Below, piece by piece: positions 4,714 to 62,084 of a DNA stretch of 64,000 nt. The notes under the pieces are model-generated. The model saw nothing but the letters and a program-made list of their open reading frames with translations. It did not search any database and had not been told where the DNA came from. A program made the translations under genes and the position numbers. The DNA is from Escherichia coli (GTDB lineage: Bacteria; Pseudomonadota; Gammaproteobacteria; Enterobacterales; Enterobacteriaceae), in assembly GCF_011045215.1 (NCBI RefSeq), contig NZ_CP049201.1; one strand, given 5' to 3'. Position 1 is the stretch's first letter. The number at the start of each line of letters is the position of its first letter.

Positions 4714-5279
4714 TATGTATTCCCTTGTGATTATAATCTTCATGAATATATCAATAAGTGCCGTTATCCAAAAAAAAAGCACATTTGGATACTATTCTAT
4801 GAAGTTCATTTTATTTTAAAGATTACATGTAACAAATGTATTTAAAAGATTTCAAAATGCTTCTAATCTATTTAATATAATTCAGAATTATGAATTCTAA
4901 ATATAAACATTCATGAAAATTATAAATGTATATCAATATATTATGAGTTGAATGGAAAGATAGGGAGTATCAATGATTGTTGCGCCAAACGGCAGGCGTG
5001 ATCACGCGCACATTAATGAAGGTATAAAAAAAGCCGGCATCATGCCGGCCCAAAAAATATAAACAAGACGATAAAAGGCTAATAACGGGGTTATCATGAC
5101 ACAGAAATCAAAAAAGGTATAATTGTATTCAGTGCTAATATATTGTTTGGGTGAATTAATAAAACTATTACCAAGGATATAAATAAATCTTTATTGCTGT
5201 TTTTCCAGTAATTATTGCCGTTGCGCAAAATTTATCTATTTGTTCAAAAAATGATTGAGTCTCGACTGGCTCATCCAAT

Positions 5280-13440: not shown

Positions 13441-13527
13441 AACACATCAGATTTCCTGGTGTAACGAATTTTTTAAGTGCTTCTTGCTTAAGCAAGTTTC
13501 ATCCCGCCCCCCTCAGGGTCGGGATTT
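13441..13527 (+). ncRNA. dsrA: DsrA small regulatory RNA (Hfq-dependent; rpoS activator / hns repressor)
   Basis: Sequence AACACATCAGATTTCCTGGTGTAACGAATTTTTTAAGTGCTTCTTGCTTAAGCAAGTTTC... matches DsrA as I recall it; ends in GC-rich hairpin plus T-run; lies between yedP and yodD. Confidence 0.85.
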
Positions 13528-39580: not shown

Positions 39581-39678
<98 letters not shown>

Positions 39679-44812: not shown

Positions 44813-45535
44813 ATGCAGGATACGGATTTTTTCAGCTGGCGTCGCACGATGCTGTTGCGTTTTCAGAGGATGGAGGCCGCAGAAGAGGTCTACCATGAAA
44901 TAGAGCTTCAGGCTCAGCTGCTGGAGTACGATTACTATTCGTTATGTGTTCGCCACCCGGTACCATTCACTCGACCTAAAGTGGCTTTCTACACCAATTA
45001 CCCTGAGGCGTGGGTTAGTTATTATCAGGCAAAAAACTTTCTCGCAATTGATCCGGTACTGAACCCTGAAAACTTTAGTCAGGGCCATCTAATGTGGAAT
45101 GATGACTTATTCAACGAAGCACAGCCGTTATGGGAAGCCGCGCGCGCACATGGTTTACGCCGCGGTGTCACTCAGTATTTAATGCTGCCAAACCGGGCGC
45201 TGGGCTTTTTGTCCTTTTCCCGTTGCAGCGCGCGCGAAATACCCATTCTTAGTGATGAACTGCAATTAAAAATGCAGTTACTGGTGCGCGAAAGTCTGAT
45301 GGCTCTGATGCGTTTAAATGATGAAATAGTGATGACGCCAGAGATGAATTTCAGCAAGCGCGAAAAAGAAATTCTGAGGTGGACGGCGGAAGGGAAGACA
45401 TCAGCAGAGATAGCGATGATTTTGTCAATCTCTGAGAATACGGTCAATTTCCACCAGAAAAACATGCAGAAAAAAATTAATGCACCAAATAAGACCCAGG
45501 TTGCCTGTTACGCGGCCGCTACTGGCTTAATTTGA
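44813..45535 (+). CDS. sdiA: LuxR-family quorum-sensing regulator SdiA
   Basis: Start at ATG 44813 (MQDTDFFSWRRTMLLRFQRM), 240 aa; C-terminal LuxR HTH. Confidence 0.93.
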   Translation: MQDTDFFSWRRTMLLRFQRMEAAEEVYHEIELQAQLLEYDYYSLCVRHPVPFTRPKVAFYTNYPEAWVSYYQAKNFLAIDPVLNPENFSQGHLMWNDDLFNEAQPLWEAARAHGLRRGVTQYLMLPNRALGFLSFSRCSAREIPILSDELQLKMQLLVRESLMALMRLNDEIVMTPEMNFSKREKEILRWTAEGKTSAEIAMILSISENTVNFHQKNMQKKINAPNKTQVACYAAATGLI

Positions 45536-45564
45536 TCTCTTTTCTGTCCTGCGTGCCAGATGCA

Positions 45565-45600
45565 AAAACCGGCTGAAAGGCACGCTATCAGCCGGTTTTA
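45565..45600. terminator. Bidirectional hairpin terminator between sdiA and yecF
   Basis: aaaaccggctga...tcagccggtttt palindrome between convergent genes. Confidence 0.65.
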
Positions 45601-45602
45601 TA

Positions 45603-45827
45603 TTACTGACGGTAGGCTTGTTTAATTTGCTTAACCGTTTTGGAAAATACTGCAGCCTGGGTTTCGTCTTCGATCAGCGCAAGCTGTTTTTCCATCTTTA
45701 ACATCACGCGGCCCGCGTCAGCTTGTCCCATCGCCTGCAGCATCAGCGTCAGCATCGCTTTCAGGCAGGAGACTTCATTTGCCAGTTCTTGATTATTCTC
45801 GGCAGTAGAAAAATCAGGCGTACTCAT
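45603..45827 (-). CDS. yecF: Small protein YecF
   Basis: 74 aa; conserved position. Confidence 0.85.
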
Positions 45828-46285
45828 TTATTTTCCTCGTCATGTTGCAATGAAAATTTGCGGTGAAAAATGTTAAGGCGGCGGAGTATACCATAAGCTT
45901 TGCTAAAAATAGCAGTGGTTGTTTTTTGAGCGTGTCGTCAACGGTGCTATTAAATGCGTTAATATAATGACCAATAAATATTTTTATCATGAATGTTTTT
46001 TGCCCGTATTGTTCGGGTTAATTAATGTTACATATTCAGCGGGCTGATTTTCATTTTTGCTGAATAAAGGTAATTTTTGTCACATTTCGTCGCAGGGCTT
46101 ACTGTGAAACGATCCGGTAAGCCGTTGGTGACGGGCGTGACCATAACTGTGGACAATCGAATTGACAAAAACGAGAGAAAAATCGAATACCCACCATTTT
46201 TAACGTTTCAAAGTTGCAATAAAAACCGCTAATATACGAATGACTAACTATCAGTAGCGTTATCCCTATTTCTGGAGATATTCCT

Positions 46286-49527: not shown

Positions 49528-49603
<76 letters not shown>

Positions 49604-49656
49604 GTTTAAAAGGCATCGGCGTCAGCGGATGTCTGGCTGAAAGGCCTGAAGAATTT

Positions 49657-49730
49657 GGCGCGTTAACAAAGCGGTTATGTAGCGGATTGCAAATCCGTCT
49701 AGTCCGGTTCGACTCCGGAACGCGCCTCCA
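49657..49730 (+). tRNA. cysT: tRNA-Cys (anticodon GCA)
   Basis: GGCGCGTTAACAAAGCGG...GATTGCAAATCC...CGCGCCTCCA. Confidence 0.92.
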
Positions 49731-49742
49731 CTTTCTTCCCGA

Positions 49743-49829
49743 GCCCGGATGGTGGAATCGGTAGACACAAGGGATTTAAAATCCCTCGGCGTTCGCGCTG
49801 TGCGGGTTCAAGTCCCGCTCCGGGTACCA
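49743..49829 (+). tRNA. leuZ: tRNA-Leu (anticodon TAA), long variable arm
   Basis: GCCCGGATGGTGGAATCGGTAGACACAAGGGATTTAAAATCCC...CCGGGTACCA. Confidence 0.92.
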
Positions 49830-49865
49830 TGGGAAAGATAAGAATAAAATCAAAGCAATAAGCAG

Positions 49866-49897
49866 TGTCGTGAAACCACCTTCGGGTGGTTTTTTTG
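49866..49897 (+). terminator. Rho-independent terminator of the tRNA operon
   Basis: aaaccaccttcgggtggttttttt. Confidence 0.7.
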
Positions 49898-49998
49898 TAT
49901 TTGTATTTTGAGCAATGGCGGTAGAGTGGCGGTGGTGTGGCGATATGCAGAAACAACAATGGTAGTGCACGTGCTGTTTAAGCTCTAAGGATGAAGCA

Positions 49999-50370: not shown

Positions 50371-50652
50371 ATGCGATGTGGTTTATTAATGGCAATCTGC
50401 TTTTGTTTGGTATCTTTTAGTGGGTATGCAGCAACAGGAAAGTCTGATGTTCAGATCAAGAAAGAAATAATTAAAGAATCCATTGAATCATATCCAGGCA
50501 ATTGTGCGTGTCCTTATAATCATGCAAGGAATGGTAGTAGGTGTGGTGGACGCAGTGCATATAGCCGTACTGGAGGGTATGATGTGGTATGTTATGAGAG
50601 TGATGTTACTGATGAAATGATCCGGCAATGGAAGCAGGAGAATGCTGATTAA
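50371..50652 (+). CDS. Hypothetical small secreted Cys-rich protein
   Basis: ORF 50257..50652; likely start at ATG 50371 (MRCGLLMAICFCLVSFSGYAA signal-like N-terminus), ~70-aa mature part with four Cys; AT-rich; strong terminator downstream; family not recognised. Confidence 0.5.
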   Translation: MRCGLLMAICFCLVSFSGYAATGKSDVQIKKEIIKESIESYPGNCACPYNHARNGSRCGGRSAYSRTGGYDVVCYESDVTDEMIRQWKQENAD

Positions 50653-50730
50653 TTACTTTTGACTGGTTTGTTTTGCGAGCATTATGTGTGTTGTTAACGG
50701 TACCCTAGCTAAGTGAGAGTTCCAAAATAA

Positions 50731-50762
50731 AACCCGCAGTTTTTACGCTGCGGGTTTTATTG
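50731..50762 (+). terminator. Rho-independent terminator
   Basis: aaaacccgcagtttttacgctgcgggttttattgttt. Confidence 0.75.
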
Positions 50763-50843
50763 TTTCTGTCGATGGGATAGGGTGCCACTTCGGCCAGCCT
50801 TGGCAACCGATTGACGGGGGATTACTCCCCCGTCGCGGTTTCC

Positions 50844-50984
50844 TTACTGCTTACACTGTAAGAACGCCGCAAACTCCGCTCCCCAGAAGCTCATCCGTAT
50901 TTCACACAGCGAACCGTGCAGCATCCAGATGATGAGGATTACCGTCACGCAGAACGTGATGGCCGTAAGCGATTTTTGCGACAT
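50844..50984 (-). CDS. hok: Hok/Gef-family type I toxin (46 aa), below the ORF-track length cutoff
   Basis: Minus-strand translation MSQKSLTAITFCVTVILIIWMLHGSLCEIRMSFWGAEFAAFLQCKQ: single TM helix plus the Hok signature SLCEIR and AAFL tail (HokA-like). Confidence 0.8.
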   Translation of the reverse strand: MSQKSLTAITFCVTVILIIWMLHGSLCEIRMSFWGAEFAAFLQCKQ

Positions 50985-51165
50985 AGCGCTTGCTCCTTTT
51001 TAGGGGAGGCGCTAACCTATCACTTGCTAAGGTTAGATGGTTAGGGCCTCGGTTAAACAGGGATGTTTTCCGGGGCCTTTCCACATCTGGCCTTCGGGCA
51101 TACCCTCCGACCATCAGCCGAAAGGCACCCGCGCGTAATCTATCGTTTTTTTGTTGCTTCGGCAA
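50902..51165 (-). other. mok-like overlapping reading frame / hok mRNA leader; sok antisense RNA expected on + strand within ~51040-51120
   Basis: 87-codon frame overlapping the hok start in another frame, the arrangement of mok in hok/sok loci; sok position inferred, not demonstrated. Confidence 0.45.
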
Positions 51166-51174
51166 TTCTGCTCG

Positions 51175-51435
51175 TTAATTCTGAGGTAAAGGCAAACTCA
51201 TCTGATTGTTTCCCCTGTGTGACGTTGGCAGTTCATGCCACGGGATACCTTCTGAAGATCGAACGCCTGAGGTGTGTTTCGATGTGAATTTATGGAAAGC
51301 TTCCAGTGTTGAGAAGCATACGCCGCATTCCAGGTTGTTACACTGGTAATACTTTTGTCGGACGGTGTTTGAATCATTTTCCGGACGACTTGTGCGGATA
51401 CGGGCAGATGCGCCACAAAGCGGACAACGGAACAT
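51175..51435 (-). CDS. ogr: Ogr/Delta-family zinc-finger late transcription activator
   Basis: MFRCPLCG...ARIRTSR...YYQCNNLECG Cys4 pattern typical of P2 Ogr; AGGGAGG RBS. Confidence 0.85.
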   Translation of the reverse strand: MFRCPLCGASARIRTSRPENDSNTVRQKYYQCNNLECGVCFSTLEAFHKFTSKHTSGVRSSEGIPWHELPTSHRGNNQMSLPLPQN

Positions 51436-51611
51436 AGCAACCTCCCTTTAGGTGGTGCTATTCTAAATTTCATCAATGCAGATTCCAACTCCTTCCCACT
51501 TTAAGCGAAGGATGGTGATAAAGTCAGAAGATGTTAGATGAAATCTAAACGGGCGATAAGTTTTCCAATATTTGAATAACAACGTGGCAGGATTTTTGTT
51601 TATCAATTATC

Positions 51612-51629
51612 TTACACTTTTAAGTGTAA
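51612..51629. promoter_or_regulatory. Perfect palindrome TTACACTTTTAAGTGTAA (candidate operator) upstream of the cargo gene
   Basis: 8-bp inverted arms around a 2-bp centre, ~25-40 bp upstream of the cargo ORF start. Confidence 0.4.
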
Positions 51630-51654
51630 TAAATTTGTTAGTGATGACAATATT

Positions 51655-53077
51655 GTGAGAGGAGATTATCAATTGAAGATGGCAAAAAATAACAATGATA
51701 AAATGCGGGCAAAGTATAGGCCGTTCATAAATATATGGGAACATCTTCCTTCTGAGTTCAATGAACTCATCAAGACGTTAATGGTGCTGATACGGCAAGG
51801 GGAAAATGTGGGAGCTCAGCAAAGGGAGCTTGATTCCATCGAAAACTTCAAACACCTGTTAAGTGGATGGAAGCGGGCGCAAAGGATCATAGCTGATGAA
51901 CTCATTATCAGGCTTTCTCAAATCAAGGATCTGGAGTTAGAAAAGAATTGTGCCCATTCAAAAAAGGACTATGAAACAAAGAAGAAGTGTATACGCAATA
52001 TTGAAAGGACTAGACTAGAAATTAGGATTTTACGTAGGTGCATTGATTCAATTGTATGGGCGATATTCCGCAATGAACACTCGTCTATAAGACGTTTACC
52101 TATAAATAGAAATACTGACAATCTGACAATATTTAATATACATGATTCAATGGTGGTAGCAGATGAAATCAATGCTGATCCGATGGCTATAGCTGTTATC
52201 ACTGATATTACTACGTTTGTACATACTGGTGATTTACTTGCGTTAATACCTCAGCAAGGCATAACTTTAATTGAAATAAAAAGTGGTAAGAAAAATATAG
52301 AGTTTTCAAAGGCGGCTATGTTCTCAGTGCAAAGTAAATGTCTTCATTTTGATGAGATTTATAGAAAAGACCTTGATAAAAATGACTTGAAACACTATGA
52401 CAGAGCTAAGCGTCAACTTAAAAGAGCTCAAAATGTGATAGATGTCATTGAGACTGGTAAGGGATTTGATAACTTTTTTCAGTCTCAAGTAACAATTCAT
52501 GACAGAGATTTTTGTCCCGATTTTTATACAGATAAGATTATTGAGCTTTGGTATGAGATATATAACGGTAAAACTTGGGCGATTACTGACATTAATGATT
52601 GTTTATTCCTTGGGGCATATATTAATTCTAATATGGGTTTTTGCGGTTTTAATGGATGGATGGAGGTATCTAGAATATCGGGGAGAGTGGTTTAATATTC
52701 TTGATAGCTTTTCAGATGCTTTATCACGTCCATTTTTTAGTTTGAACCTACCTGATAAATTGCTTCTGGATATCATTAATGGCAATCTAATTGTTGTGCT
52801 GTGTTTCGATCATCGTCGTTTCGTAGAAAGAGCAAATAAAAAATACCCCGGGATTTATGAGTTATTGGATTTTCCATCTCCGAAGATTAATCCTATGAGT
52901 ATGCTTTCCATCAATGGGAAGGGGGTAGTTTCTAGTGTTGATGGACAGAGTGTTTTTATTGGAAATGGTTACGAAACTCGGATTATTTTTGATCAGCAAT
53001 ATCCAGATAGTCTGATTAAGTGGTCATACCATATGAGTGATCTCAAAAAAATATTGATAAAAAAAAGCGTAAAATGA
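51655..53077 (+). pseudogene. AT-rich prophage cargo gene of unknown family, apparently frameshifted (~470 aa if merged); PD-(D/E)xK-like motif
   Basis: ORFs 51655..52695 (frame 1) and 52499..53077 (frame 2) overlap; both have protein-like sequence outside the overlap; frame switch needed near the G-run at 52678-52690; motif VITDI...TGDLLAL...LIEIKSGKK. Confidence 0.55.
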
Positions 53078-53272
53078 AAAAGGAAACGCAAAGAAAAATA
53101 AAAGAGAAAAGAAAACGTAGCAGAAAACAATGCTTAAACTAACACATCTAATGCTTTAATTTGCTTTACTGTTACAATGTCCGCTTACTGGTACAGGGCG
53201 GACTGCCATATTAGATTTGGTTCTATCTCGTAAGAGTGGCCGTTCAGGTCTGCACTAATACATCTGAATGGT

Positions 53273-54382
53273 TCACTCTGTTTCTGCTATCCATTCCGGG
53301 ATTTTTGCTTCAAGCTCAAGCTGCGTGGTAAAGCCGCTGTTATCAATGGTGTGCTCGGCTTTTGCAATAATCCAGTCCTGATTATCAATCTCGCTTTTAA
53401 ATCCTGTTACCGTGCCATGCATTTCGGGGTAGAGTTCTGCGCGTCCGCGTGCCAGTGTGATGGAGAATGATGCGGCTCCGCGTTGTAGTTGTTGCCACTT
53501 TGCCGCCGCTGCGCGTCTTGCTGCCTGCTCGTTCTGATAAGTCTTGCGTAACACAAACACATTGCCTTCCGCGCCTTCCATATAATCACCTTCACGGCTG
53601 CTGCTTTTCTCTTTTTTCGGTTTTGGCGGTTTGCGGCGTTTCACGCTGACTTTTTTCTTTTTCCCGTAATTAAGATCAAGCCAGTAAGCGCGTACCCCCG
53701 TATACGCCTCGCGGTCAGCAATGCGGAACTGATGGCGATCGCCGCTGCTGCGTGTGATGGCGAACGAGGGCAACGGCTGGCCCTGTGCGTTCACGCCACC
53801 GCCGGGCATGATGAATAACAGATTACCGCTTTTTACCGTGGTGATTGCGCCCAGCATTTCCGCCATGCGCGTAAGGAAGGACATGTCACTTTCTTCGGTC
53901 TGGTCGGCGTGGTCGATTTCGATATCCATCAGCATTTCGCTGATTTGCGGTTTCAGACCGTACCGATGAGCGATGGCGGATACCACACGCTCAACGGTCA
54001 CATCATGCCAGGACATCTCACGTTTAACGTTAAATTCATCCCGAAAATCTGCGCTTCTGGCTGAAACAGTCAGCCTGTCCGGCGGTCCTTCGTGTGCGAT
54101 TTCATCAACAATGTAAGAGCCTTTTTCTGTCAGCGGTTCGCCTTTCCAGCCAATGAGAACCGTCAGGCGCGCGCCCCGTGGCGGTAGCCGCAACTGACCA
54201 TCCGCATCATCCAGCGTGATGGTGAGCTGGTCTGCCTCAAATCCCCGGTTGTCGGTCAGCGACAGGCTCATCAGGCGCTCTGCCACGCCGGACAGCGTTT
54301 TACCCTCCGCGAGAATATCAAAATCCGGCATTTTTACGGGGTCTGTGCCCTGACTGAGCAATTGCATGGTGGTGTCGGTCAT
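53273..54382 (-). CDS. P2 gpD-like tail protein (late control gene D homolog)
   Basis: Start at ATG 54382 (MTDTTMQLLSQ...) with GGGAGGG RBS; 369 aa; gpD-like. Confidence 0.8.
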   Translation of the reverse strand: MTDTTMQLLSQGTDPVKMPDFDILAEGKTLSGVAERLMSLSLTDNRGFEADQLTITLDDADGQLRLPPRGARLTVLIGWKGEPLTEKGSYIVDEIAHEGPPDRLTVSARSADFRDEFNVKREMSWHDVTVERVVSAIAHRYGLKPQISEMLMDIEIDHADQTEESDMSFLTRMAEMLGAITTVKSGNLLFIMPGGGVNAQGQPLPSFAITRSSGDRHQFRIADREAYTGVRAYWLDLNYGKKKKVSVKRRKPPKPKKEKSSSREGDYMEGAEGNVFVLRKTYQNEQAARRAAAAKWQQLQRGAASFSITLARGRAELYPEMHGTVTGFKSEIDNQDWIIAKAEHTIDNSGFTTQLELEAKIPEWIAETE

Positions 54383-54539
54383 CTGTTCCCTCCCTGTGCG
54401 GCATGGTCGCATGTGCGTGCGGAGGGGGTTACTGCTTTTTGTTGTCGCCGGGTCGGGAGAACGGCGCAGGGGTGAGATTACGCGCGTGGTGGGTGATGAT
54501 TGTTGCCGAATCATTTAACGGATACAAGGGGCTGAAGCT

Positions 54540-55724
54540 ATGAGTGAAACTCGTTTTCATGGTGCCCGTGTTACGGAAAATACCGACCTGGTAACAGCGA
54601 TTAACGATGTTGATTCCAGCGTTATCGGTATCGTGGCAACGGCGGATGATGCGGACGCGAAGCTGTTCCCGCTGAACAAGCCCACACTGCTGACCCGCGT
54701 CAATGACGTGCTGGGAAAATGCGGGACAACGGGGACGCTTTATCGTGCGCTTAAGGCCATCGCAGACCAGGTGAGCACAAAGGTGATCGTCGTTCGCGTG
54801 GCTGAACACAAAGAAGAAGACGGAAAAACGCAGGATCAACTGGTTATCGGTGGTTCTGAATCTGACGGCAGCTATACGGGGATGTATGCGCTGCTTGTTG
54901 CAGAGCAGGATGAAAGCATCGGATACCGTCCGCGTATTCTGGCCGCGCCGGAGCTGGACACGGAGGCGGTAACAAAATCCCTGTGCGTGATTGCGGGTAA
55001 ACTGCGCGCGTTTGTGTATGCCTCATGTCACGGCTGTAACACGATGGCTGAGGCGATTACCTACCGCCAGAAATTCAACGAACGTGAGGTGATGCTCTTA
55101 TGGCCGGACTTCATCGCCTACAACCCGAAAAGTGGCAAAAACGAAACGTTCCCCGCGCCTGCCTATGCGTGCGGCCTTCGTGCGTACATTGACCATGAGC
55201 AGGGATGGCACAAATCACTGTCCAACGTTCCGGTTAAAAATGTGCTGGGGATGTCGAGGCATGTGTTCTGGTCGTTGCAGGCCGAAGACAGCGATGCCAA
55301 CAGCCTCAACAACAAAGAAATCACGACCATTATTCGTCGCAACGGGTTCCGCTTCTGGGGCAACCGCACACCGGAAACGAACGCCTACATCTTTGAGGTG
55401 TATACCCGAACCGCACAGGTGCTGGCTGATTCAATTGCGGAAGCGCAGTTTGAAACCATCGACAGTCCATTAACACCCGCGAACGTGAAGGATGTTATCA
55501 GTGCCATCAGGGCAAAACTGGATTCGCTGGTTACTGCCGGGAAACTGATAGGCGCGGAGTGCTGGTATGACGTGGTGGATAACAGCACCACGGATTTACG
55601 TCAGGGACGTGTGCGTATTCGCTACAAATATACGCCCGTTCCGCCACTGGAAGACATGGAGCTTTACCAGACGTTTACTGATGAATACTTTGAACCCGCA
55701 TTTGCGGTGCTGGGAGGTGCCTGA
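54540..55724 (+). CDS. P2 FI-like contractile tail sheath protein
   Basis: 394 aa; blocks shared with P2 FI (FPLNKP, LRAF, WPDF, EQGWHK.LSNV, IRRNGFRFWGNRT, YTPVPPLE). Confidence 0.9.
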   Translation: MSETRFHGARVTENTDLVTAINDVDSSVIGIVATADDADAKLFPLNKPTLLTRVNDVLGKCGTTGTLYRALKAIADQVSTKVIVVRVAEHKEEDGKTQDQLVIGGSESDGSYTGMYALLVAEQDESIGYRPRILAAPELDTEAVTKSLCVIAGKLRAFVYASCHGCNTMAEAITYRQKFNEREVMLLWPDFIAYNPKSGKNETFPAPAYACGLRAYIDHEQGWHKSLSNVPVKNVLGMSRHVFWSLQAEDSDANSLNNKEITTIIRRNGFRFWGNRTPETNAYIFEVYTRTAQVLADSIAEAQFETIDSPLTPANVKDVISAIRAKLDSLVTAGKLIGAECWYDVVDNSTTDLRQGRVRIRYKYTPVPPLEDMELYQTFTDEYFEPAFAVLGGA

Positions 55725-56236
55725 TGGCTGTGCCAAAACATCTTCGCTTTTTTACGCTGTTTGTGGATGGTGAAAACGAAGTGGGTAAGGTGACGTCCGT
55801 CACTCTGCCTAAGCTGACGCGCAAAACCGACAGCTACCGGGGTGGCGGCATGATGGGTGCGGTAAGTATTGATCTCGGTCTGGACGACTCCGCGCTTGAT
55901 GCGAGCTTTGTCATGGGGGGCGCAGTTCGTGAGCTGTTCCTTAAGTATGGCGGCACGATTGACGGCACGCTGCTGCGTTTTGCGGGTGAATACTACACCG
56001 ATGCAGAAAGCGACCTGTATGAAGTCGAAATGCGCGGACGTGTGACGGAAATTGATATGGGGGAAGCCAAACAGGGCGAAGCCACATCACACACTTACGC
56101 CATTAAAAACACCTACTACAAGCTGAGTGTTAACGATCGCCCGTTGTGGGAGATTGACCTGCTGAACTTCATTTACCGGAAGGACGGCAAGGACATTGTG
56201 CCCGATCGCATCCGTTCCGCGCTTGGGCTTGGCTGA
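55724..56236 (+). CDS. P2 FII-like tail tube protein
   Basis: 170 aa directly after sheath gene. Confidence 0.85.
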   Translation: MAVPKHLRFFTLFVDGENEVGKVTSVTLPKLTRKTDSYRGGGMMGAVSIDLGLDDSALDASFVMGGAVRELFLKYGGTIDGTLLRFAGEYYTDAESDLYEVEMRGRVTEIDMGEAKQGEATSHTYAIKNTYYKLSVNDRPLWEIDLLNFIYRKDGKDIVPDRIRSALGLG

Positions 56237-56290
56237 TAAGTAATATGCAGGCGGCGCAGTGCGTCGCCTCTGACTGAAAGGAGTTTCCTG

Positions 56291-56656
56291 ATGAAAGAGA
56301 CGAAAAACATCGATACCGAAAACACGGTAGTTACTGACACTGTGAAAGAAACCAGTGAGCGTGGCGTAAAACTTACCCAACCAATTGAGCGAGGCGGCGA
56401 AAAAATCACGTATGTGGAGATCACCGGGGCTATTGAGCAGGCTGGATCTCTGCGAGATTTGTCGCTGTCTGATGTGCTGAATCTGAAAGCGGAATCCATG
56501 TTTACGCTGCTGTCACGCGTGACATCACCGCGACTGGATGAAGTGACGATCAAAAAAATGGCATCCCGTGACTTTATTCAGTTATGTGTGGTTGCCGTAA
56601 ATTTTTTGAGCGGTGCGGACTCTGGCGGGAAGAACGAACAGGCGACGGAAGCCTGA
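56291..56656 (+). CDS. P2 gpE-like tail assembly chaperone (E; E+E' by -1 frameshift)
   Basis: 121 aa; followed by overlapping E' frame 56584..56820. Confidence 0.8.
   Translation: MKETKNIDTENTVVTDTVKETSERGVKLTQPIERGGEKITYVEITGAIEQAGSLRDLSLSDVLNLKAESMFTLLSRVTSPRLDEVTIKKMASRDFIQLCVVAVNFLSGADSGGKNEQATEA
56602..56608 (+). promoter_or_regulatory. Programmed -1 ribosomal frameshift slippery site (T TTT TTG) for E+E' fusion
   Basis: Heptamer TTTTTTG inside gpE where the E' frame (56584..56820) opens; conserved recoding in P2-like tail chaperones. Confidence 0.7.
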
Positions 56657-56770
56657 TCACGGTTGTGTGCTTTGAGCACATAGAAGACTTTGTGGCGGAT
56701 ATTGCCGCCATTTTTAACTGGTCGCCCGCCGAAATCTTCATGATGACGCCCGGCGAAGTGGTTAGCTGGC

Positions 56771-59614
56771 GTGAGCGGGCGGCACTTCGCAGCGGGAATG
56801 CAGACAATGAAGACTCTTGATATCCGGGTCGCTTTCAGCGCCGTTGACAGGCTGACCCGGCCTGCCGAAAACGCCCGCCGCCTGATGGGGCAGTTTGGTG
56901 ACTCCATCCAGCGAACGCAGGGGGCGATCAAAAATCTCGAGCGTCAGGCGCGTTCATTTGAGCGCGCCCGTGACGCTGTCAGTAAAGCGGATGCTGGCAT
57001 ATTGAAAGCACGACGCCAGCTTAACGCCCTTAATCAGTTACAACGCACGGGTACAGTGCTCAGCGAAAAACAACAAAAGCTGATGCAGCAGTTAAGCACC
57101 CGGCTTGAACGCCTGAATGAATCGCGCACACGTGAAATTCAGAAAATGCGGGAGCTTGGCGGAGAGCTGAAACGCCACGGCATTTCCCTGACAGGCAGCG
57201 ATAACACCATCCAGCAGGCCATCAGACGCACCGAACAGTACAACAACCAGCTTGAACGCGAACGGCAGGCGCTTGCGCGTGTAACGCGGGCGCGTGAGCG
57301 GTATTCGCGCGCGCAGGAAACCGCGGGAAAACTGAAAACAGGTGGTGCGCTGGCAATTGGTGCGGCAGCGGCTGGCGGCTATGCTGCCGGGCGTTTTTTG
57401 CAGCCTGCGATCGGGTTCGGCAAAGAGATGTCCCGCGTTCAGGCACTGACGCGAATCGACAAAAACAGCCCGCAGTTTAAGGCGCTGCGTGAGCAGGCGT
57501 TAAAACTTGGCTCTGAAACACAGTTTACTGCGAGTGATGCCGCCAGTGGGCAGAGCTTTCTGGCAATGGCTGGTTTTACTCCGCAGTCCATTCAGGCCGC
57601 ATTGCCCGGTGTTCTTAATATGGCGCTGGCAGGTGGCGTCGAACTCGGCGAGACGGCTGATATAGGCTCCAATATCCTCACACAGTTCAACCTGACAGCC
57701 GATCAAATGGGCCGTGTTGGCGATACGCTGACAGCAGCATTCACCCGGACCAATACTGATTTACGCGCGCTGGGCGAAACCATGAAGTATACCGGTCCGG
57801 TTGCCGCAAAACTTGGTATCAGTCTTGAAGAAGCGGCAGCCATGGCCGGGATGCTTGCCAATAATGGTCTTCGTGGAAGCGATGCTGGTACGGCCATTCG
57901 CGCAAGTCTGTCCCGCCTTGCATCACCGCCAAAAGCTGCGGCTGATGCGCTGAAAGAGCTGGGGGTGTCAGTTGCTGACGCCAGAGGCAAAATGCGCCCG
58001 ATGGAGGATGTGCAGCTTGATCTCTACAAGGCGACACAAAAATACGCACAGGTGGACCAGGTTTCCTTCTTCAAGGACATCGCCGGAGAAGAGGCGTTCG
58101 TTGGTTTGCAGACGCTTGTTGCGGCGTCTGGTTCAGGAGAGCTGCAAAAACTGACCAGAGAATTGCAGGGGGCAAGGGGAGAGGCCGATCGCGTTGCAAA
58201 AGTAATGGCCGATAATCTTGATGGGGACCTGAAAAATCTCGACAGCGCATGGGAAGGTCTTCGTATTCGCATCAGTGATCTGGTTGACGGTCCGCTGCGT
58301 TCTGTCACGCAGTGGCTCACGCGGGGGCTTGAAAAAATCACCTCGCTGGCGCAGGCCCATCCGGTACTGACGCGCCAGCTACTGATAGCAGGCGGTGCGT
58401 TGCTGGCAATGACTGTAACGATTGGCTCGTTGTCGCTGGTTATTGGGGGGCTTTACGGGAAGCTGGCTACCTTGCGTCTTGGTTTTGACATTCTTACCCG
58501 GTCAATGAATGTCGTCAGGGTGTTGCCTGCGCTGTGGGGAATGGTGACGGGTTCCGTTTCTTTACTGGGAGGCGCTATCGGGGCGCTGTTCAGTCCGGTT
58601 GGTCTTATCGTGGCTGCGCTTGCCGGAGCTGCCGTTCTTATCTGGAAATACTGGGATCCCATCAGGGCATTTTTTGCAGGGGTGTTCAGCGGGATTATGG
58701 AAAGGCTGACCCCGTTGCGCGAAACCTTTGAACGGTTTGGTCCTGTTTTTGACGCAATCGGAAGCGGGATCAGCCAGGTGTTTAACTGGTTTAAATTGCT
58801 GCTGTCACCGATGGAGTCCAGCAAGGAAACGCTGGATAAATGCACCAGTGCTGGCGAGGTATTCGGTAACGTTCTTGGTGGCGCGTTACAGCTTGTTCTG
58901 ACGCCTGCAAAAATGCTGCTGGATACGCTGGCGTGGATACTTGAAAAACTCGGTGTGCTTCCGGATGAGGCGGAAAGGGCGCGTAAGAAAATCGAAGACG
59001 CACAGCGTGCGGCCATTCTTCAGGACAAGGTTGCCTTGCTTCAGGGGGATCTGGCGAAAATCAATCCGCCGAAGCCTGTGGAAAATGGCAATGGCACCGG
59101 AGGTGATAAACCCAAAGACAACAAACCGCTCACAGACAGCAATACCGGGACGCTACGCAGACTCAGCAAAATTGCTGATAACACAGGTAAGCTGGTTGAT
59201 GAGACGAAAAAACGCATTGGCCCCGGCGATATTGTCTTTAAGAACCTGCCCCGCGCACTTGCTGTTCGTGGGGAGTGGCAGGAGCGGAAGATTGCGCAGG
59301 TCAGTAAGCCTGCCCCCGCAATTAATATCACACCTGTGGTCCCGGCTCCGCTGCCTCCGACGCTGGTCCCTGTTGTTGCGGCCAGCTCCCGCCCGGTGGC
59401 GGAGTCCATACGATCTCCAGTGGCATCAGTTCCTGCAACTTCCCGTAACCGGGAGCCTGTTGCCTCCGGATTTGGCGGTGAAATTCATGTTCATCTGCAT
59501 AACGTTGTTACGCAGAATCCCCGCGAACTGGCGAAACTGGTCGGCGAAATGGTCAGTGCAGAAATGGAACGGCGCGCCCGTGCCAGGCGTGGCAGTTTTT
59601 ACGATAAAGATTGA
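56771..59614 (+). CDS. P2 gpT-like tail tape measure protein
   Basis: 947 aa, coiled-coil N-terminal part and hydrophobic Gly-rich central segments. Confidence 0.88.
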   Translation: MSGRHFAAGMQTMKTLDIRVAFSAVDRLTRPAENARRLMGQFGDSIQRTQGAIKNLERQARSFERARDAVSKADAGILKARRQLNALNQLQRTGTVLSEKQQKLMQQLSTRLERLNESRTREIQKMRELGGELKRHGISLTGSDNTIQQAIRRTEQYNNQLERERQALARVTRARERYSRAQETAGKLKTGGALAIGAAAAGGYAAGRFLQPAIGFGKEMSRVQALTRIDKNSPQFKALREQALKLGSETQFTASDAASGQSFLAMAGFTPQSIQAALPGVLNMALAGGVELGETADIGSNILTQFNLTADQMGRVGDTLTAAFTRTNTDLRALGETMKYTGPVAAKLGISLEEAAAMAGMLANNGLRGSDAGTAIRASLSRLASPPKAAADALKELGVSVADARGKMRPMEDVQLDLYKATQKYAQVDQVSFFKDIAGEEAFVGLQTLVAASGSGELQKLTRELQGARGEADRVAKVMADNLDGDLKNLDSAWEGLRIRISDLVDGPLRSVTQWLTRGLEKITSLAQAHPVLTRQLLIAGGALLAMTVTIGSLSLVIGGLYGKLATLRLGFDILTRSMNVVRVLPALWGMVTGSVSLLGGAIGALFSPVGLIVAALAGAAVLIWKYWDPIRAFFAGVFSGIMERLTPLRETFERFGPVFDAIGSGISQVFNWFKLLLSPMESSKETLDKCTSAGEVFGNVLGGALQLVLTPAKMLLDTLAWILEKLGVLPDEAERARKKIEDAQRAAILQDKVALLQGDLAKINPPKPVENGNGTGGDKPKDNKPLTDSNTGTLRRLSKIADNTGKLVDETKKRIGPGDIVFKNLPRALAVRGEWQERKIAQVSKPAPAINITPVVPAPLPPTLVPVVAASSRPVAESIRSPVASVPATSRNREPVASGFGGEIHVHLHNVVTQNPRELAKLVGEMVSAEMERRARARRGSFYDKD

Positions 59615-59620
59615 GGAGTC

Positions 59621-60115
59621 ATGGCCATGATGATGATCTATGGCATGTTTGTTTTTGAGCTGCGCACACTGCCACATCAGCAGTTACAGCAAAACAAAAG
59701 CTGGCGGCATGTGAAAAATGAACGCGTTAACCGTTCAGCAAGCTGGCAGTATATCGGTGCAGGTGATGATCGCATCGTTCTTTCCGGCGTGCTTTATCCT
59801 GAAATTACAGGTGGTGAAGTGTCGCTGTCGCTGCTGACCACGCAGGCATATACAGGGCGGCCCTGGCCTCTGATTGATGGTGTCGGGCAGATTTACGGCA
59901 TGTATGTCCTGACCGGAACGAATACGACCCGCTCCGAGTTTGATCGCTACGGTAAGGCGAAAAAAATAGAATTTTCACTGACCCTTGAACGCTGTGATGA
60001 GGATTTGCGGGAGCGCCTGCAATCCTCATCGTTCAGCGATATGCTGTCCGGCTTCAAAGATAAGGTGACATCATCCCTTAACAGCGCGGCCAGTTCAGTT
60101 AAAGGACTGTTCTGA
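59621..60115 (+). CDS. P2 gpU-like tail protein
   Basis: 164 aa directly after tape measure gene. Confidence 0.8.
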   Translation: MAMMMIYGMFVFELRTLPHQQLQQNKSWRHVKNERVNRSASWQYIGAGDDRIVLSGVLYPEITGGEVSLSLLTTQAYTGRPWPLIDGVGQIYGMYVLTGTNTTRSEFDRYGKAKKIEFSLTLERCDEDLRERLQSSSFSDMLSGFKDKVTSSLNSAASSVKGLF

Positions 60116-61484: not shown

Positions 61485-62084
61485 TTATGCTTGTTTACTC
61501 CTTGATTCCACTGGGGAAGCAGGCCACTCAATATCCGGTGCTCTTGATGTATCAACACGGTTCAGCAGCACTCGATACTTCTTCCATGCCACCAGTAACG
61601 ATGTTTCTTCCTCTGTTGCAATATTCAAATCTACGGCATCTTGAAGTGGCGAAATATGCTCACTGGCTACCTGCATGAGGCTGTTTTTTGTTTCTTCCGC
61701 CTCCCGTATCCGGAACACTTTTTCTGCTTCTGCATCTTTCACCCACGTTGTGCCGTTCCACTTCTGAAACTCCCCTTCCGGGGATAACCAGGTGACATTT
61801 TCCGGTAATGGACCGAGTTCAGAAATAAATAACGCGCCCCCTGATGCCACGTCATAAACCGTTTTACCACGATGATCTTCAACGAGATGCCAGGACGTCT
61901 TATCACTGTTGAAAATAGCCACGAAGCCAGCTGGAATATCTGGCGGAGAAATATCAGTACTATTTGCAGGTAGACCTGTATGAGGTGGAATGTATGCATC
62001 ACCTTCACCAATAAATTCATTGGTTCCGACCAGCAGATTATAAATTTTTATGGTTCGTGGTTGTTCACTCATTCTGAATGCCAT
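61485..62084 (-). CDS. Tail fibre assembly protein (P2 gpG/Tfa-like)
   Basis: 199 aa; start overlaps stop of tail fibre gene. Confidence 0.85.

What the first reader, a model, noticed from the sequence alone, without database searches (positions are those of the whole stretch)
50800..51170. Intact hok/sok-type type I toxin-antitoxin locus next to the prophage end; toxin ORF missing from the ORF track
Reverse-complement translation of 50844..50984 gives a 46-aa peptide MSQKSLTAITFCVTVILIIWMLHGSLCEIRMSFWGAEFAAFLQCKQ, with one TM helix and the Hok signature SLCEIR / AAFL (closest in my memory to HokA). A longer overlapping frame (50902..51165) covers its start as mok does. Chromosomal hok copies are often inactivated; this one appears intact and is not at any K-12 hok position.
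Basis: partly seen in the sequence, partly recalled or inferred. Interest (0 to 1): 0.55.

Follow-up and report, generated by a model that had tools for sequence, protein, structure and literature searches.

The report
Prophage-borne hok/sok toxin-antitoxin cassette
The 46-residue gene is a real and apparently intact Hok membrane toxin with its antisense-RNA antidote, carried inside a P2-family prophage, but this exact peptide is already annotated and catalogued, so the finding is correct and ordinary.

Summary
It matches Pfam HOK_GEF (E=4e-7) and PHROG 251 (E=2.5e-23). The leader matches Rfam RF01794 at E=8e-8, below that family's gathering score.

The peptide sits in a self-contained cassette of about 390 bp (51165..50780). 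The cassette has a promoter, a 5'-3' tac/fbi closing helix, a sequestered ribosome-binding site, a protective 3' hairpin and a predicted antisense Sok gene. The mRNA fold is kept in 69 alleles (93% of pairs against about 41% in shifted controls).

The cassette is not a chromosomal hok. It lies about 0.9 kb inside a P88-like (Xuanwuvirus, P2-family) prophage integrated in tRNA-Leu leuZ, directly downstream of ogr. About a third of complete E. coli genomes carry this cassette lineage, and RefSeq annotates it "Hok/Gef family protein". The exact peptide is entry 1628 of a 2025-26 Hok catalogue, and a one-residue variant was cloned and reported toxic there.

One correction: the "mok-like" frame is allele-specific. 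It occurs in 20 of 64 alleles, and its listed start lies upstream of the predicted transcription start.

Verdict: already known, low interest.

The parts
51160..51165 (-). hok promoter -35 box, TTGCCG
   Evidence: Read. TTGC is invariant in the 14-sequence alignment, and TTGCCG is found in 39 of 69 alleles. Sequence conservation of the cassette begins here. The strict consensus scan did not report it.
51137..51142 (-). hok promoter -10 box, TAGATT, 17-nt spacer
   Evidence: All 69 alleles fit TANNNT (TAGATT, TAAATT, TAGAAT, TACATT or TACAGT). It sits at -12..-7, the same position as the experimentally mapped TATGAT box of R1 hok (PMC9841398).
50780..51130 (-). full-length hok mRNA, from the predicted start (G at 51130) to the end of fbi. 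The true 3' end is not determined.
   Evidence: The Rfam RF01794 match starts at 51130. The minimum-energy fold closes the 5' end on the 3' end, -157 kcal/mol, z=-6.1. Pairs are kept in 92% of cells in 14 sequences and 92.7% in 69, against about 41% in shifted controls, with 20 and 29 pairs showing compensatory changes.
51116..51130 (-). tac element (mRNA nt 1-15), GGGUGCCUUUCGGCU
   Evidence: It pairs with fbi in the full-length fold and with nt 47-59 in the truncated fold. It is invariant in alignment A1.
51072..51084 (-). ucb-like partner of tac in the truncated mRNA (nt 47-59)
   Evidence: Truncated-form fold. Paired in 99.9% of cells across 69 alleles, though the columns are nearly invariant. 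It corresponds to the first stem of the Rfam model.
51039..51050 (-). GAGGCCCUAACC (nt 81-92), positional counterpart of the R1 mok ribosome-binding site. Predicted to capture the anti-SD after 3' trimming.
   Evidence: pairs 81-92 with 114-125 form a standard pair in all but one of the cells counted across 69 alleles. Compared with the R1-type sequence. No start codon follows it here.
51025..51045 (-). variable Sok-recognition region of the leader (nt 86-106)
   Evidence: Entropy peak inside an otherwise conserved leader, with many distinct variants. Nt 99-112 pair with nt 320-333 of the 3' UTR, with 5 compensatory pairs.
51005..51014 (-). anti-SD (nt 117-126, AGCGCCUCCC)
   Evidence: It pairs with the SD/AUG region in the full-length fold. 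The helices are 99.8% and 92.4% paired in 69 alleles.
50993..50998 (-). hok Shine-Dalgarno sequence, AAGGAG
50844..50984 (-). hok coding sequence, 46 aa plus stop
   Evidence: The residues that the Hok logo shows as conserved are all present with the same spacing: M1, C12, T14, L26-C27-E28 and E37, plus C44 at the logo's Cys/Tyr position 48 (logo description). The identical peptide is on at least 1000 contigs.
50902..51114 (-). allele-specific mok-like frame (AUG 51114 or GUG 51084, to the stop at 50902)
   Evidence: A read-through frame is absent in 8 of 14 relatives and 44 of 64 alleles.
50813..50834 (-). 3' stem-loop GACGGGGGAGUAAUCCCCCGUC, the predicted 3' end of the processed mRNA
   Evidence: It is 100% paired with 4 compensatory pairs in 14 sequences and 99.2% paired with 5 compensatory pairs in 69.
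50798..50811 (-). 3'-UTR clamp (nt 320-333) that pairs with the Sok-target region in the full-length mRNA
50780..50795 (-). fbi element, GGCCGAAGUGGCACCC
   Evidence: 15-bp helix with tac, 91-95% paired, with changes on one side only (mostly G-U wobble) and some unpaired cells. Cassette conservation ends here.
50726..50761 (.). bidirectional terminator-like hairpin, part of the P88-type context and not of the mobile cassette
   Evidence: It is shared with phage P88 but not with the lambdoid copies.
50990..51018 (+). predicted sok promoter: -35 TTGCTC (50990-50995), 17-nt spacer, -10 TAACCT (51013-51018)
   Evidence: TAACCT is found in 69 of 69 alleles and the spacer is 17 nt in 66 of 69. An R1-type locus has TTGCGC-17-TATCCT at the same position. 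It matches the sigma-70 consensus at only 6 of 12 positions and was not reported by the scan. This is an inference.
51025..51088 (+). predicted Sok antisense RNA, about 58-68 nt: a 5' single-stranded tail of 10-14 nt and a long hairpin (51043-51079)
   Evidence: Both ends are inferred and not mapped.
51175..51435 (-). ogr/Delta-type zinc-finger late activator, directly upstream of the cassette
   Evidence: No terminator-like site lies between its stop codon (51175) and the hok -35 box.
49775..49898 (+). attL: 124-bp repeat covering leuZ nt 33-87, the 3'ETS-leuZ sRNA and 2 further nt
   Evidence: It is 100% identical to the far prophage end next to int/yecA in strain 14EC001. Colinearity with K-12 stops at 49898.

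Best explanation
This is an intact hok/sok-type type I toxin-antitoxin cassette. Its toxin belongs to Hok '60%-identity cluster 72' and is HokA-like. It is a standard accessory module of a P88-like (Xuanwuvirus, P2-family) prophage integrated in leuZ.

Shown here:
- The toxin gene is a Hok-family member.
- A conserved unit of about 390 bp runs from a -35 box to the fbi element.
- The mRNA fold closes its 5' end (tac) on its 3' end (fbi), sequesters the Shine-Dalgarno sequence with an upstream anti-SD, and clamps the antisense-target region with a 3'-UTR segment.
- The fold is maintained by compensatory changes across alleles.

Inferred mechanism:
1. The hok mRNA is made from TTGCCG-17-TAGATT and is stable but untranslatable.
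2. 3' exonucleolytic trimming back to the hairpin at 50813-50834 removes fbi and the clamp.
3. tac then pairs with nt 47-59. This frees GAGGC (nt 81-85), which captures the anti-SD and exposes the hok ribosome-binding site.
4. The short-lived Sok RNA is transcribed from the opposite strand (about 51025 to 51088). It pairs with the now exposed leader, and the duplex is destroyed.
5. When Sok synthesis stops, Hok is made and kills the cell through its action on the inner membrane (the preprint describes Hok as forming pores there).

Most likely role, the least certain part: a selfish stabilisation (addiction) module of the prophage. A contribution to lysis or to exclusion of other phages is also possible.
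For: Identity.

RNA architecture: Rfam leader match; full-length fold with 5'-3' closure, z=-6.1; truncated fold with the tac stem and a freed SD; pair conservation and covariation.

Cassette limits and promoters.

Sok shape.

Prophage carriage: the att repeat and the K-12 empty site; the same ogr-hok arrangement at four other insertion sites plus a plasmid copy, and in phages P88, Chuche and Shae_phiSM.

Toxicity of the lineage: the exact peptide is catalogue entry 1628. Cluster-72 peptides 72_1621 (V15A relative to this one) and 72_1589 were cloned. Only three other constructs of the 45 tested were non-toxic (bioRxiv 10.1101/2025.08.07.668861).

R1 mechanism used as the template: PMC9841398.
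Against: - No transcript, transcription start or processing site was observed here.
- Neither promoter reaches the threshold of the consensus scan. The sok promoter matches the consensus at only 6 of 12 positions, and its invariance could reflect RNA-structure constraints on the other strand.
- The Rfam score is below the gathering threshold (40.7 against 59), and the NCBIfam scores are far below their cut-offs.
- The helices specific to the truncated form are almost invariant, so they carry little covariation evidence.
- Without a conserved mok, how Sok blocks translation is not explained by the R1 model.
- The biological role is untested for any P2-family phage.
Confidence: 0.85

Rival explanations
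1. In this allele, regulation follows the classical R1 scheme. A mok leader frame is translated from GUG 51084 (GAAGG lies 6 nt upstream) or from AUG 51114, hok translation is coupled to it, and Sok acts by blocking mok.
For: The frame is open from nt 17/47 through the hok start in this allele, and it has the same +1 register to hok as I recall for R1 mok (the R1 register is from my memory of the sequence, not from a tool result). The 3' tail of the predicted Sok would cover the GUG. In R1, mok translation is required (PMC9841398).
Against: A read-through frame is present in only 6 of 14 relatives and 20 of 64 unique alleles. That is close to the roughly 20% expected by chance for 33 stop-free codons. 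It is absent from phage P88 and from alleles that encode the identical Hok peptide. The AUG and GUG are each lost in some alleles.
Confidence: 0.25
2. The cassette's main role is not prophage addiction. It either helps lysis and phage release on induction, as reported for the unrelated hokW-sokW of Stx2 prophage Sp5, or it excludes superinfecting phages, as reported for R1 hok/sok against T4.
For: Sp5 hokW-sokW roughly doubles phage release after mitomycin C (PMC8621323). That paper also reports that a hok-sok system (the snippet does not name the plasmid; R1 is from my own knowledge) reduced T4 plating efficiency by 42% and plaque size by about 85%. hok sits directly downstream of the late activator ogr with no terminator between them. 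The cassette lies beside the variable cargo region.
Against: There is no experiment on this lineage. The preprint found no enrichment of hok near defence systems (section title). Sp5 HokW is a different, HokC/D-like peptide.
Confidence: 0.35
3. The locus is a decaying, non-functional hok copy, like several K-12 chromosomal hok loci.
For: Sub-threshold Rfam and NCBIfam scores, weak consensus promoters, and no conserved mok.
Against: The ORF, SD, both promoter boxes, tac/fbi and the 3' hairpin are intact and conserved. There is no IS element or frameshift. The identical peptide is on at least 1000 contigs. Of the 64 unique cassette alleles with a recognisable hok start, 61 encode a 46-aa ORF, one 47 aa, and two have altered C-termini; 5 further cassettes had no recognisable start. 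Compensatory changes maintain the fold. A one-residue variant is toxic.
Confidence: 0.06
4. The cassette is a chromosomal islet next to the prophage and not phage DNA.
For: It lies close to the prophage end, in a region of variable content.
Against: Colinearity with K-12 ends at 49898, about 880 bp before the cassette. The 124-bp att repeat brackets the cassette together with the prophage. Sequenced phage genomes P88, Chuche and Shae_phiSM contain it.
Confidence: 0.02

Closest known systems
Hok 60%-identity cluster 72 of the Escalera-Maurer et al. catalogue (bioRxiv 10.1101/2025.08.07.668861)
   Same: The exact peptide is entry 1628. Entries 72_1621 (V15A) and 72_1589 (the allele found in Stx phages) were cloned for the toxicity assay and are not among the three non-toxic constructs.
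   Different: Nothing at the protein level. That work did not analyse mok, Sok or the mRNA of this cluster, and in what I read it does not describe the ogr-adjacent position in P88-like prophages.
hok/sok (parB) of plasmid R1
   Same: Same order of elements: a TANNNT -10 box at -12..-7, a 5' tac paired to a 3' fbi, a tac/ucb stem in the truncated form, a GAGG box, an anti-SD/SD hairpin before hok, a protective 3' hairpin, and an antisense promoter with a 17-nt spacer at the same place.
   Different: Hok is 46 aa here against 52 aa in R1. There is no start codon after the GAGG box and no conserved mok frame. The leader is about 30 nt shorter. The locus is phage-borne, not plasmid-borne. The Rfam score is below gathering.
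HokA of E. coli K-12 (NCBIfam NF007290)
   Same: It is the best-scoring curated model (E=6e-9). Some sources name this peptide 'protein HokA'.
   Different: The score is 35.8 against a cut-off of 89, so it is not an ortholog. The genomic site is different, and K-12 has no insert at leuZ.
hokW-sokW of Stx2 prophage Sp5 (PMC8621323)
   Same: It is a phage-borne hok/sok that has been tested experimentally. It shares the name of the PHROG 251 label 'MokW-like host killing'.
   Different: It is a different lineage. The cloning primers encode MKQQKAM...DYESEK, a 51-aa HokC/D-like peptide. The true relative of this locus in 933W-type phages is a separate 46-aa ORF beside lom, about 81% identical in DNA and unannotated in NC_000924.

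Membership tests
Hok/Gef toxin family (Pfam PF01848) | Match to the family profile | tested here: met
   PF01848 E=4.3e-7, 29.9 bits, residues 7-44. PHROG 251 E=2.5e-23.
Hok/Gef toxin family (Pfam PF01848) | About 50 aa with one hydrophobic helix and the conserved C..T and LCE..E residues | tested here: met
   M1, C12, T14, L26-C27-E28, E37 and C44 have the same spacing as logo positions 1, 16, 18, 30-32, 41 and 48 (sequence, logo description).
Hok/Gef toxin family (Pfam PF01848) | Toxic when expressed | not testable with these tools
   The V15A variant 72_1621 was cloned and is not among the three non-toxic constructs of the preprint.
hok/sok type I TA locus (R1 paradigm) | Long-range 5' tac / 3' fbi pairing that closes the full-length mRNA | tested here: met
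   A 15-bp helix in the minimum-energy fold, 91-95% paired across alleles, with changes on one side only (mostly G-U wobble) and some unpaired cells.
hok/sok type I TA locus (R1 paradigm) | cis-encoded antisense Sok RNA with its own promoter in the leader | tested here: inconclusive
   TTGCTC-17-TAACCT lies at the position of R1's TTGCGC-17-TATCCT. The -10 box is invariant in 69 alleles, and the predicted RNA has a 5' tail plus a hairpin. The consensus scan reports no promoter, and no transcript data are available.
hok/sok type I TA locus (R1 paradigm) | Overlapping mok frame whose translation is needed for hok translation | tested here: not met
   The frame is open in this allele, but a read-through frame is present in only 20 of 64 unique alleles and 6 of 14 relatives.
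hok/sok type I TA locus (R1 paradigm) | Rfam RF01794 covariance model at gathering score | tested here: not met
   40.7 bits against a gathering score of 59, although the whole model (1-157) is matched at E=8e-8. The model matches the hok-mRNA strand.
hok/sok type I TA locus (R1 paradigm) | 3' processing to a translatable truncated mRNA that Sok binds | not testable with these tools
   Only predicted: the alternative fold of nt 1-322 frees the SD.
HokA ortholog (NCBIfam NF007290, equivalog) | Score at or above the curated cut-off | tested here: not met
   35.8 bits against 89.
Sp5/933W hokW-sokW | Same toxin sequence lineage | tested here: not met
   The primers in Table 2 of PMC8621323 encode MKQQKAM...DYESEK.
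P88-like (Xuanwuvirus) prophage accessory module | Lies between the att repeats and is present in sequenced phage genomes at the same place, downstream of ogr | tested here: met

The most novel reading that the evidence does not exclude
In this widespread Hok lineage (cluster 72) the mok leader peptide has been lost, yet the cassette remains regulated. The former mok ribosome-binding site (GAGG, nt 81-84) would now act purely as an RNA element. After 3' trimming it captures the anti-SD and so frees the hok ribosome-binding site directly, and Sok acts without translational coupling. In parallel, the Sok-recognition stretch (nt 86-106) is hypervariable and co-varies with a 3'-UTR clamp. This would give each of the up to nine copies per genome its own private antidote.
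Probability: 0.4. Interest if true: 0.35.

Novelty: already known. Interest (0 to 1): 0.12.

Why it matters
It matters little as a discovery. The gene is annotated in RefSeq, catalogued, and a one-residue variant has been reported toxic.

The check has three uses:
- It places the cassette correctly as cargo of a P2-family prophage and not as a chromosomal hok.
- It gives nucleotide-level coordinates for every predicted regulatory element.
- It warns against two easy mistakes: equating this lineage with the published hokW-sokW, and assuming a mok frame because one happens to be open.

The absence of a conserved mok in a lineage found in about a third of E. coli genomes is a modest, testable point. 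It bears on how general the R1 model of hok control is.

Tried and rejected
1. I first took the roughly 81%-identical copies in Stx2 phages to be the published hokW-sokW of Sp5. I rejected this because the paper's primers encode a different, 51-aa HokC/D-like toxin. The 933W relative of this locus is a separate, unannotated 46-aa ORF beside lom.
2. My recollection that 'hokW' came from the P2-like phage W-phi found no support in any search and was dropped.
3. The sigma-70 consensus scan found no promoter on either strand. The promoter calls therefore rest on conservation and on positional homology to R1 only.
4. I searched for a conserved leader ORF in any frame and found none. Stops fall at scattered distances from the SD.
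5. Literature searches for this peptide sequence in main texts gave nothing. Searches linking P2-like phages with hok gave nothing specific.
6. The cargo ORF between ogr and gpD has no hit in NCBIfam, PADLOC, PHROGs or Pfam.
7. I did not run the large protein-database searches or structure prediction. The identity was already settled.

Full report
**Observation.** An AAGGAG ribosome-binding site lies 8 nt upstream. The overlapping 87-codon frame 50902..51165 also exists.

**Is it a Hok?** Yes.
- Pfam HOK_GEF matches residues 7-44 at E=4.3e-7.
- PHROG 251 matches the full length at E=2.5e-23.
- The best NCBIfam model is the HokA equivalog (E=6e-9), but at 35.8 bits against a cut-off of 89, so the peptide is HokA-like and not HokA.
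- The residues that a recent logo of 1264 Hok peptides shows as conserved (M1, C16, T18, L30, C31, E32, E41, and C/Y48) are all present with identical spacing (M1, C12, T14, L26, C27, E28, E37, C44).

**The RNA.** Rfam RF01794, named 'sok', matches 50996..51130 on the minus strand over the whole model. The score is E=8e-8 and 40.7 bits, below the gathering score of 59. The model is written in the sense of the hok mRNA leader, so this match marks the hok 5' end (GGGUGCC at 51130) and not Sok itself.

The element coordinates are:
- hok promoter: a -35 TTGCCG (51165-51160) and a -10 TAGATT (51142-51137), 17 nt apart. The -10 box occupies -12..-7, as the experimentally mapped TATGAT box does in R1.
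- Full-length fold: the 354-nt RNA from 51130 to 50777 folds at -157 kcal/mol, z=-6.1.
- tac/fbi helix: the first 15 nt (tac) pair with GGCCGAAGUGGCACCC at 50795-50780 (fbi).
- SD hairpin: the ribosome-binding site pairs with an upstream CCUCC.
- Clamp: leader nt 99-112 pair with 3'-UTR nt 320-333.
- Truncated fold: when the RNA is cut after the 3' hairpin (50813-50834) it refolds. tac pairs with nt 47-59, GAGGC (nt 81-85) takes the anti-SD, and the SD is left essentially open.

**Comparative support.** I aligned 14 relatives from different genomic contexts. I then aligned 69 unique cassettes recovered from IMG/VR with the invariant 5' 17-mer.
- The full-length structure is paired in 92.0% and 92.7% of cells, against about 41% when partners are slid by 1-3 columns.
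- Pairs with compensatory changes number 20 and 29. They are concentrated in the 3' hairpin, the leader/3'-UTR clamp and two helices within the coding region.
- Conservation starts at the -35 box and stops right after fbi, with high entropy outside. The mobile unit is therefore the cassette of about 390 bp, promoter to fbi.
- Inside it, the most variable stretches are the loop of the Sok hairpin, nt 86-106 (the predicted Sok-recognition region) and the loop between the anti-SD and the SD.

**Sok.** The opposite strand carries TTGCTC (50990-50995), a 17-nt spacer, then TAACCT (51013-51018).
- TAACCT is invariant in 69 of 69 alleles, and the spacer is 17 nt in 66 of 69.
- An R1-type plasmid locus that I fetched has TTGCGC-17-TATCCT at the same position.
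- A transcript starting near 51025 would have a single-stranded 5' tail of 10-14 nt and a long hairpin (51043-51079). This resembles my recollection of R1 Sok (the R1 Sok structure was not checked with the tools).
- This remains an inference. The hexamers match the sigma-70 consensus at only 6 of 12 positions, the scan reports no promoter, and the invariance could come from RNA structure on the other strand.

**mok.** Inside the transcript, the frame could start at AUG 51114 or at GUG 51084.
- Across relatives, a frame that reads through the hok start exists in 6 of 14 sequences and 20 of 64 unique alleles.
- It is absent from phage P88 and from alleles that encode the identical Hok peptide.
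- The stops of upstream ORFs fall at scattered distances from the SD.
- The observed frequency is close to what an unconstrained stretch of 33 codons would give.
- The GAGG box that serves as the mok ribosome-binding site in R1 is conserved here, but no start codon follows it.

I conclude that mok is not a conserved part of this lineage. The preprint cited below states that it did not analyse Mok, because the frame is hard to predict.

**Where it sits.** The window is E. coli.
- glyW-cysT-leuZ lie at 49528-49829.
- Colinearity with K-12 ends at 49898. In K-12, leuZ is followed by the 3'ETS-leuZ sRNA and then yecA.
- In strain 14EC001, which is 99.8% identical across this locus, the segment 49775..49898 is repeated perfectly (124 bp) at the far end of a prophage of about 35 kb, next to the integrase and yecA.
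- The cassette is therefore 0.9-1.3 kb inside the left end of the prophage, directly downstream of ogr, with no terminator-like site between them.
- The same ogr-hok arrangement occurs in P88-like prophages at four other insertion sites (serS, flk, prpB, and leuZ again) and on one plasmid. It also occurs in the sequenced phages P88, Chuche, P884B11, 500465-2 and Citrobacter phage Shae_phiSM.
- More distant copies (74-82% DNA identity) lie in lambdoid prophages between lom or J and the tail-fibre genes, and in an island.
- The cassette lineage is present in 1749 of 5426 complete E. coli genomes, with up to nine copies per genome. In every listed record whose match covers the whole cassette it is annotated 'Hok/Gef family protein'. 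The identical peptide is on at least 1000 contigs.

**Prior knowledge, and a correction.** I first equated the Stx-phage relatives with the published hokW-sokW of Sp5 (PMC8621323). That was wrong. The paper's primers encode MKQQKAM...DYESEK, a 51-aa HokC/D-like toxin. The relative of the present locus in 933W is a separate 46-aa ORF beside lom that the RefSeq record does not annotate.

The right reference is the Hok catalogue of Escalera-Maurer et al. (bioRxiv 10.1101/2025.08.07.668861).
- The exact peptide is entry 1628.
- Its 60%-identity cluster 72 is flagged in the preprint's Table S2 with 'HAC', which I read as one of its 16 high-abundance clusters.
- Two members were cloned for the toxicity assay: 72_1621, which differs from this peptide by V15A, and 72_1589.
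- Of the 45 constructs tested, only three others were non-toxic.
- The same work reports that hok is enriched about four-fold in prophages.

**Mechanism and role.** The molecular scheme in the best explanation combines what is shown with what is taken from R1.
- Shown here: family membership, the conserved fold, the two alternative conformations, and the cassette limits.
- Taken from R1 (PMC9841398): slow 3' trimming, Sok binding only to the trimmed form, and RNase III decay.
- The step that differs from R1, direct release of the hok SD by an RNA relay without mok, is my prediction and is not demonstrated.

I favour prophage stabilisation as the role. The cassette behaves as a self-contained selfish unit that has moved between phage types, an island and a plasmid. 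A role in lysis or in exclusion of other phages cannot be separated from this with sequence alone.

**Verdict.** Interest is low. The only mildly new points are the lack of a conserved mok and the hypervariable Sok-target stretch that co-varies with the clamp.

Noticed in passing
window 51440-53270 (ORFs 51655-52695 and 52499-53077, + strand): A low-GC (33-36%) insert lies between ogr and the tail gene D, which are about 40 bp apart in most relatives. In strain 14EC001 the insert is one intact 487-aa orphan ORF. In the window that ORF is split by a +1 (G at 52689) and a -1 (at 53044) frameshift. It has no hit in Pfam, NCBIfam, PADLOC or PHROGs. It is found in only 20 of 5426 genomes, apparently the same ones that carry this exact hok allele (both searches return 20 genomes at 99% identity or more, and all 8 listed insert hits recur in the hok list). 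It may be a cargo or defence gene of unknown kind.
   Followed up: partly
window 49775-49898, and L002 15282-15405: The prophage attachment repeat is 124 bp. It contains the last 55 nt of leuZ plus the whole 3'ETS-leuZ regulatory sRNA, so lysogens carry a second copy of that sponge RNA sequence at the distal prophage end.
   Followed up: partly
window 50371-50652 (+): A small ORF with a signal-peptide-like N-terminus and many cysteines (93 aa, phrog_27544, function unknown) lies in the variable segment between the hok cassette and attL. Other P88-like prophages carry Com plus a DNA methyltransferase, or TagO-like genes, at this place.
   Followed up: no
window 51025-51045 and 50798-50811 (mRNA nt 86-106 and 320-333): The predicted Sok-recognition stretch is the most variable part of the leader, with many alleles. 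It co-varies with a 3'-UTR segment that masks it in the full-length mRNA. This fits copy-specific antidotes in genomes with up to nine cassettes.
   Followed up: partly
Rfam RF01794, match at window 50996-51130 (-): The Rfam family named 'sok antitoxin' matches the strand of the hok mRNA leader. Its consensus begins with the tac sequence GGGUGC, so strand calls taken from this model point to hok and not to Sok.
   Followed up: yes
L137 (phage 933W, NC_000924, record 45428-45856): The 46-aa Hok ORF of this lineage lies between lom and the next gene of phage 933W. It is not annotated in the RefSeq phage record, although PGAP annotates it in the EDL933 chromosome.
   Followed up: yes
L139 (IncFII plasmid pMTY1886, R1-identical Hok): In this R1-type locus the upstream AUG after the GAGG box is in frame with hok (57 nt upstream), not in the overlapping mok register. 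PGAP annotates only a 33-aa fragment. This suggests the mok register varies even among R1-like loci.
   Followed up: no
window 53273-60115, and L003 (phage P88): The tail sheath-to-U gene block is on the opposite strand to D and ogr, unlike the colinear order I recall for phage P2 (not checked here). Phage P88 has the same arrangement, so it is the normal Xuanwuvirus gene order and not a rearrangement in this strain.
   Followed up: partly
window 61543-61741 (-), 5026-5115 (-), 13441-13527 (+), 39601-39642 (-): Other Rfam matches above gathering score: IS009 RNA (187.7 bits) inside the prophage tail-fibre region, and rseX, DsrA and ES036 in the chromosomal part.
   Followed up: no
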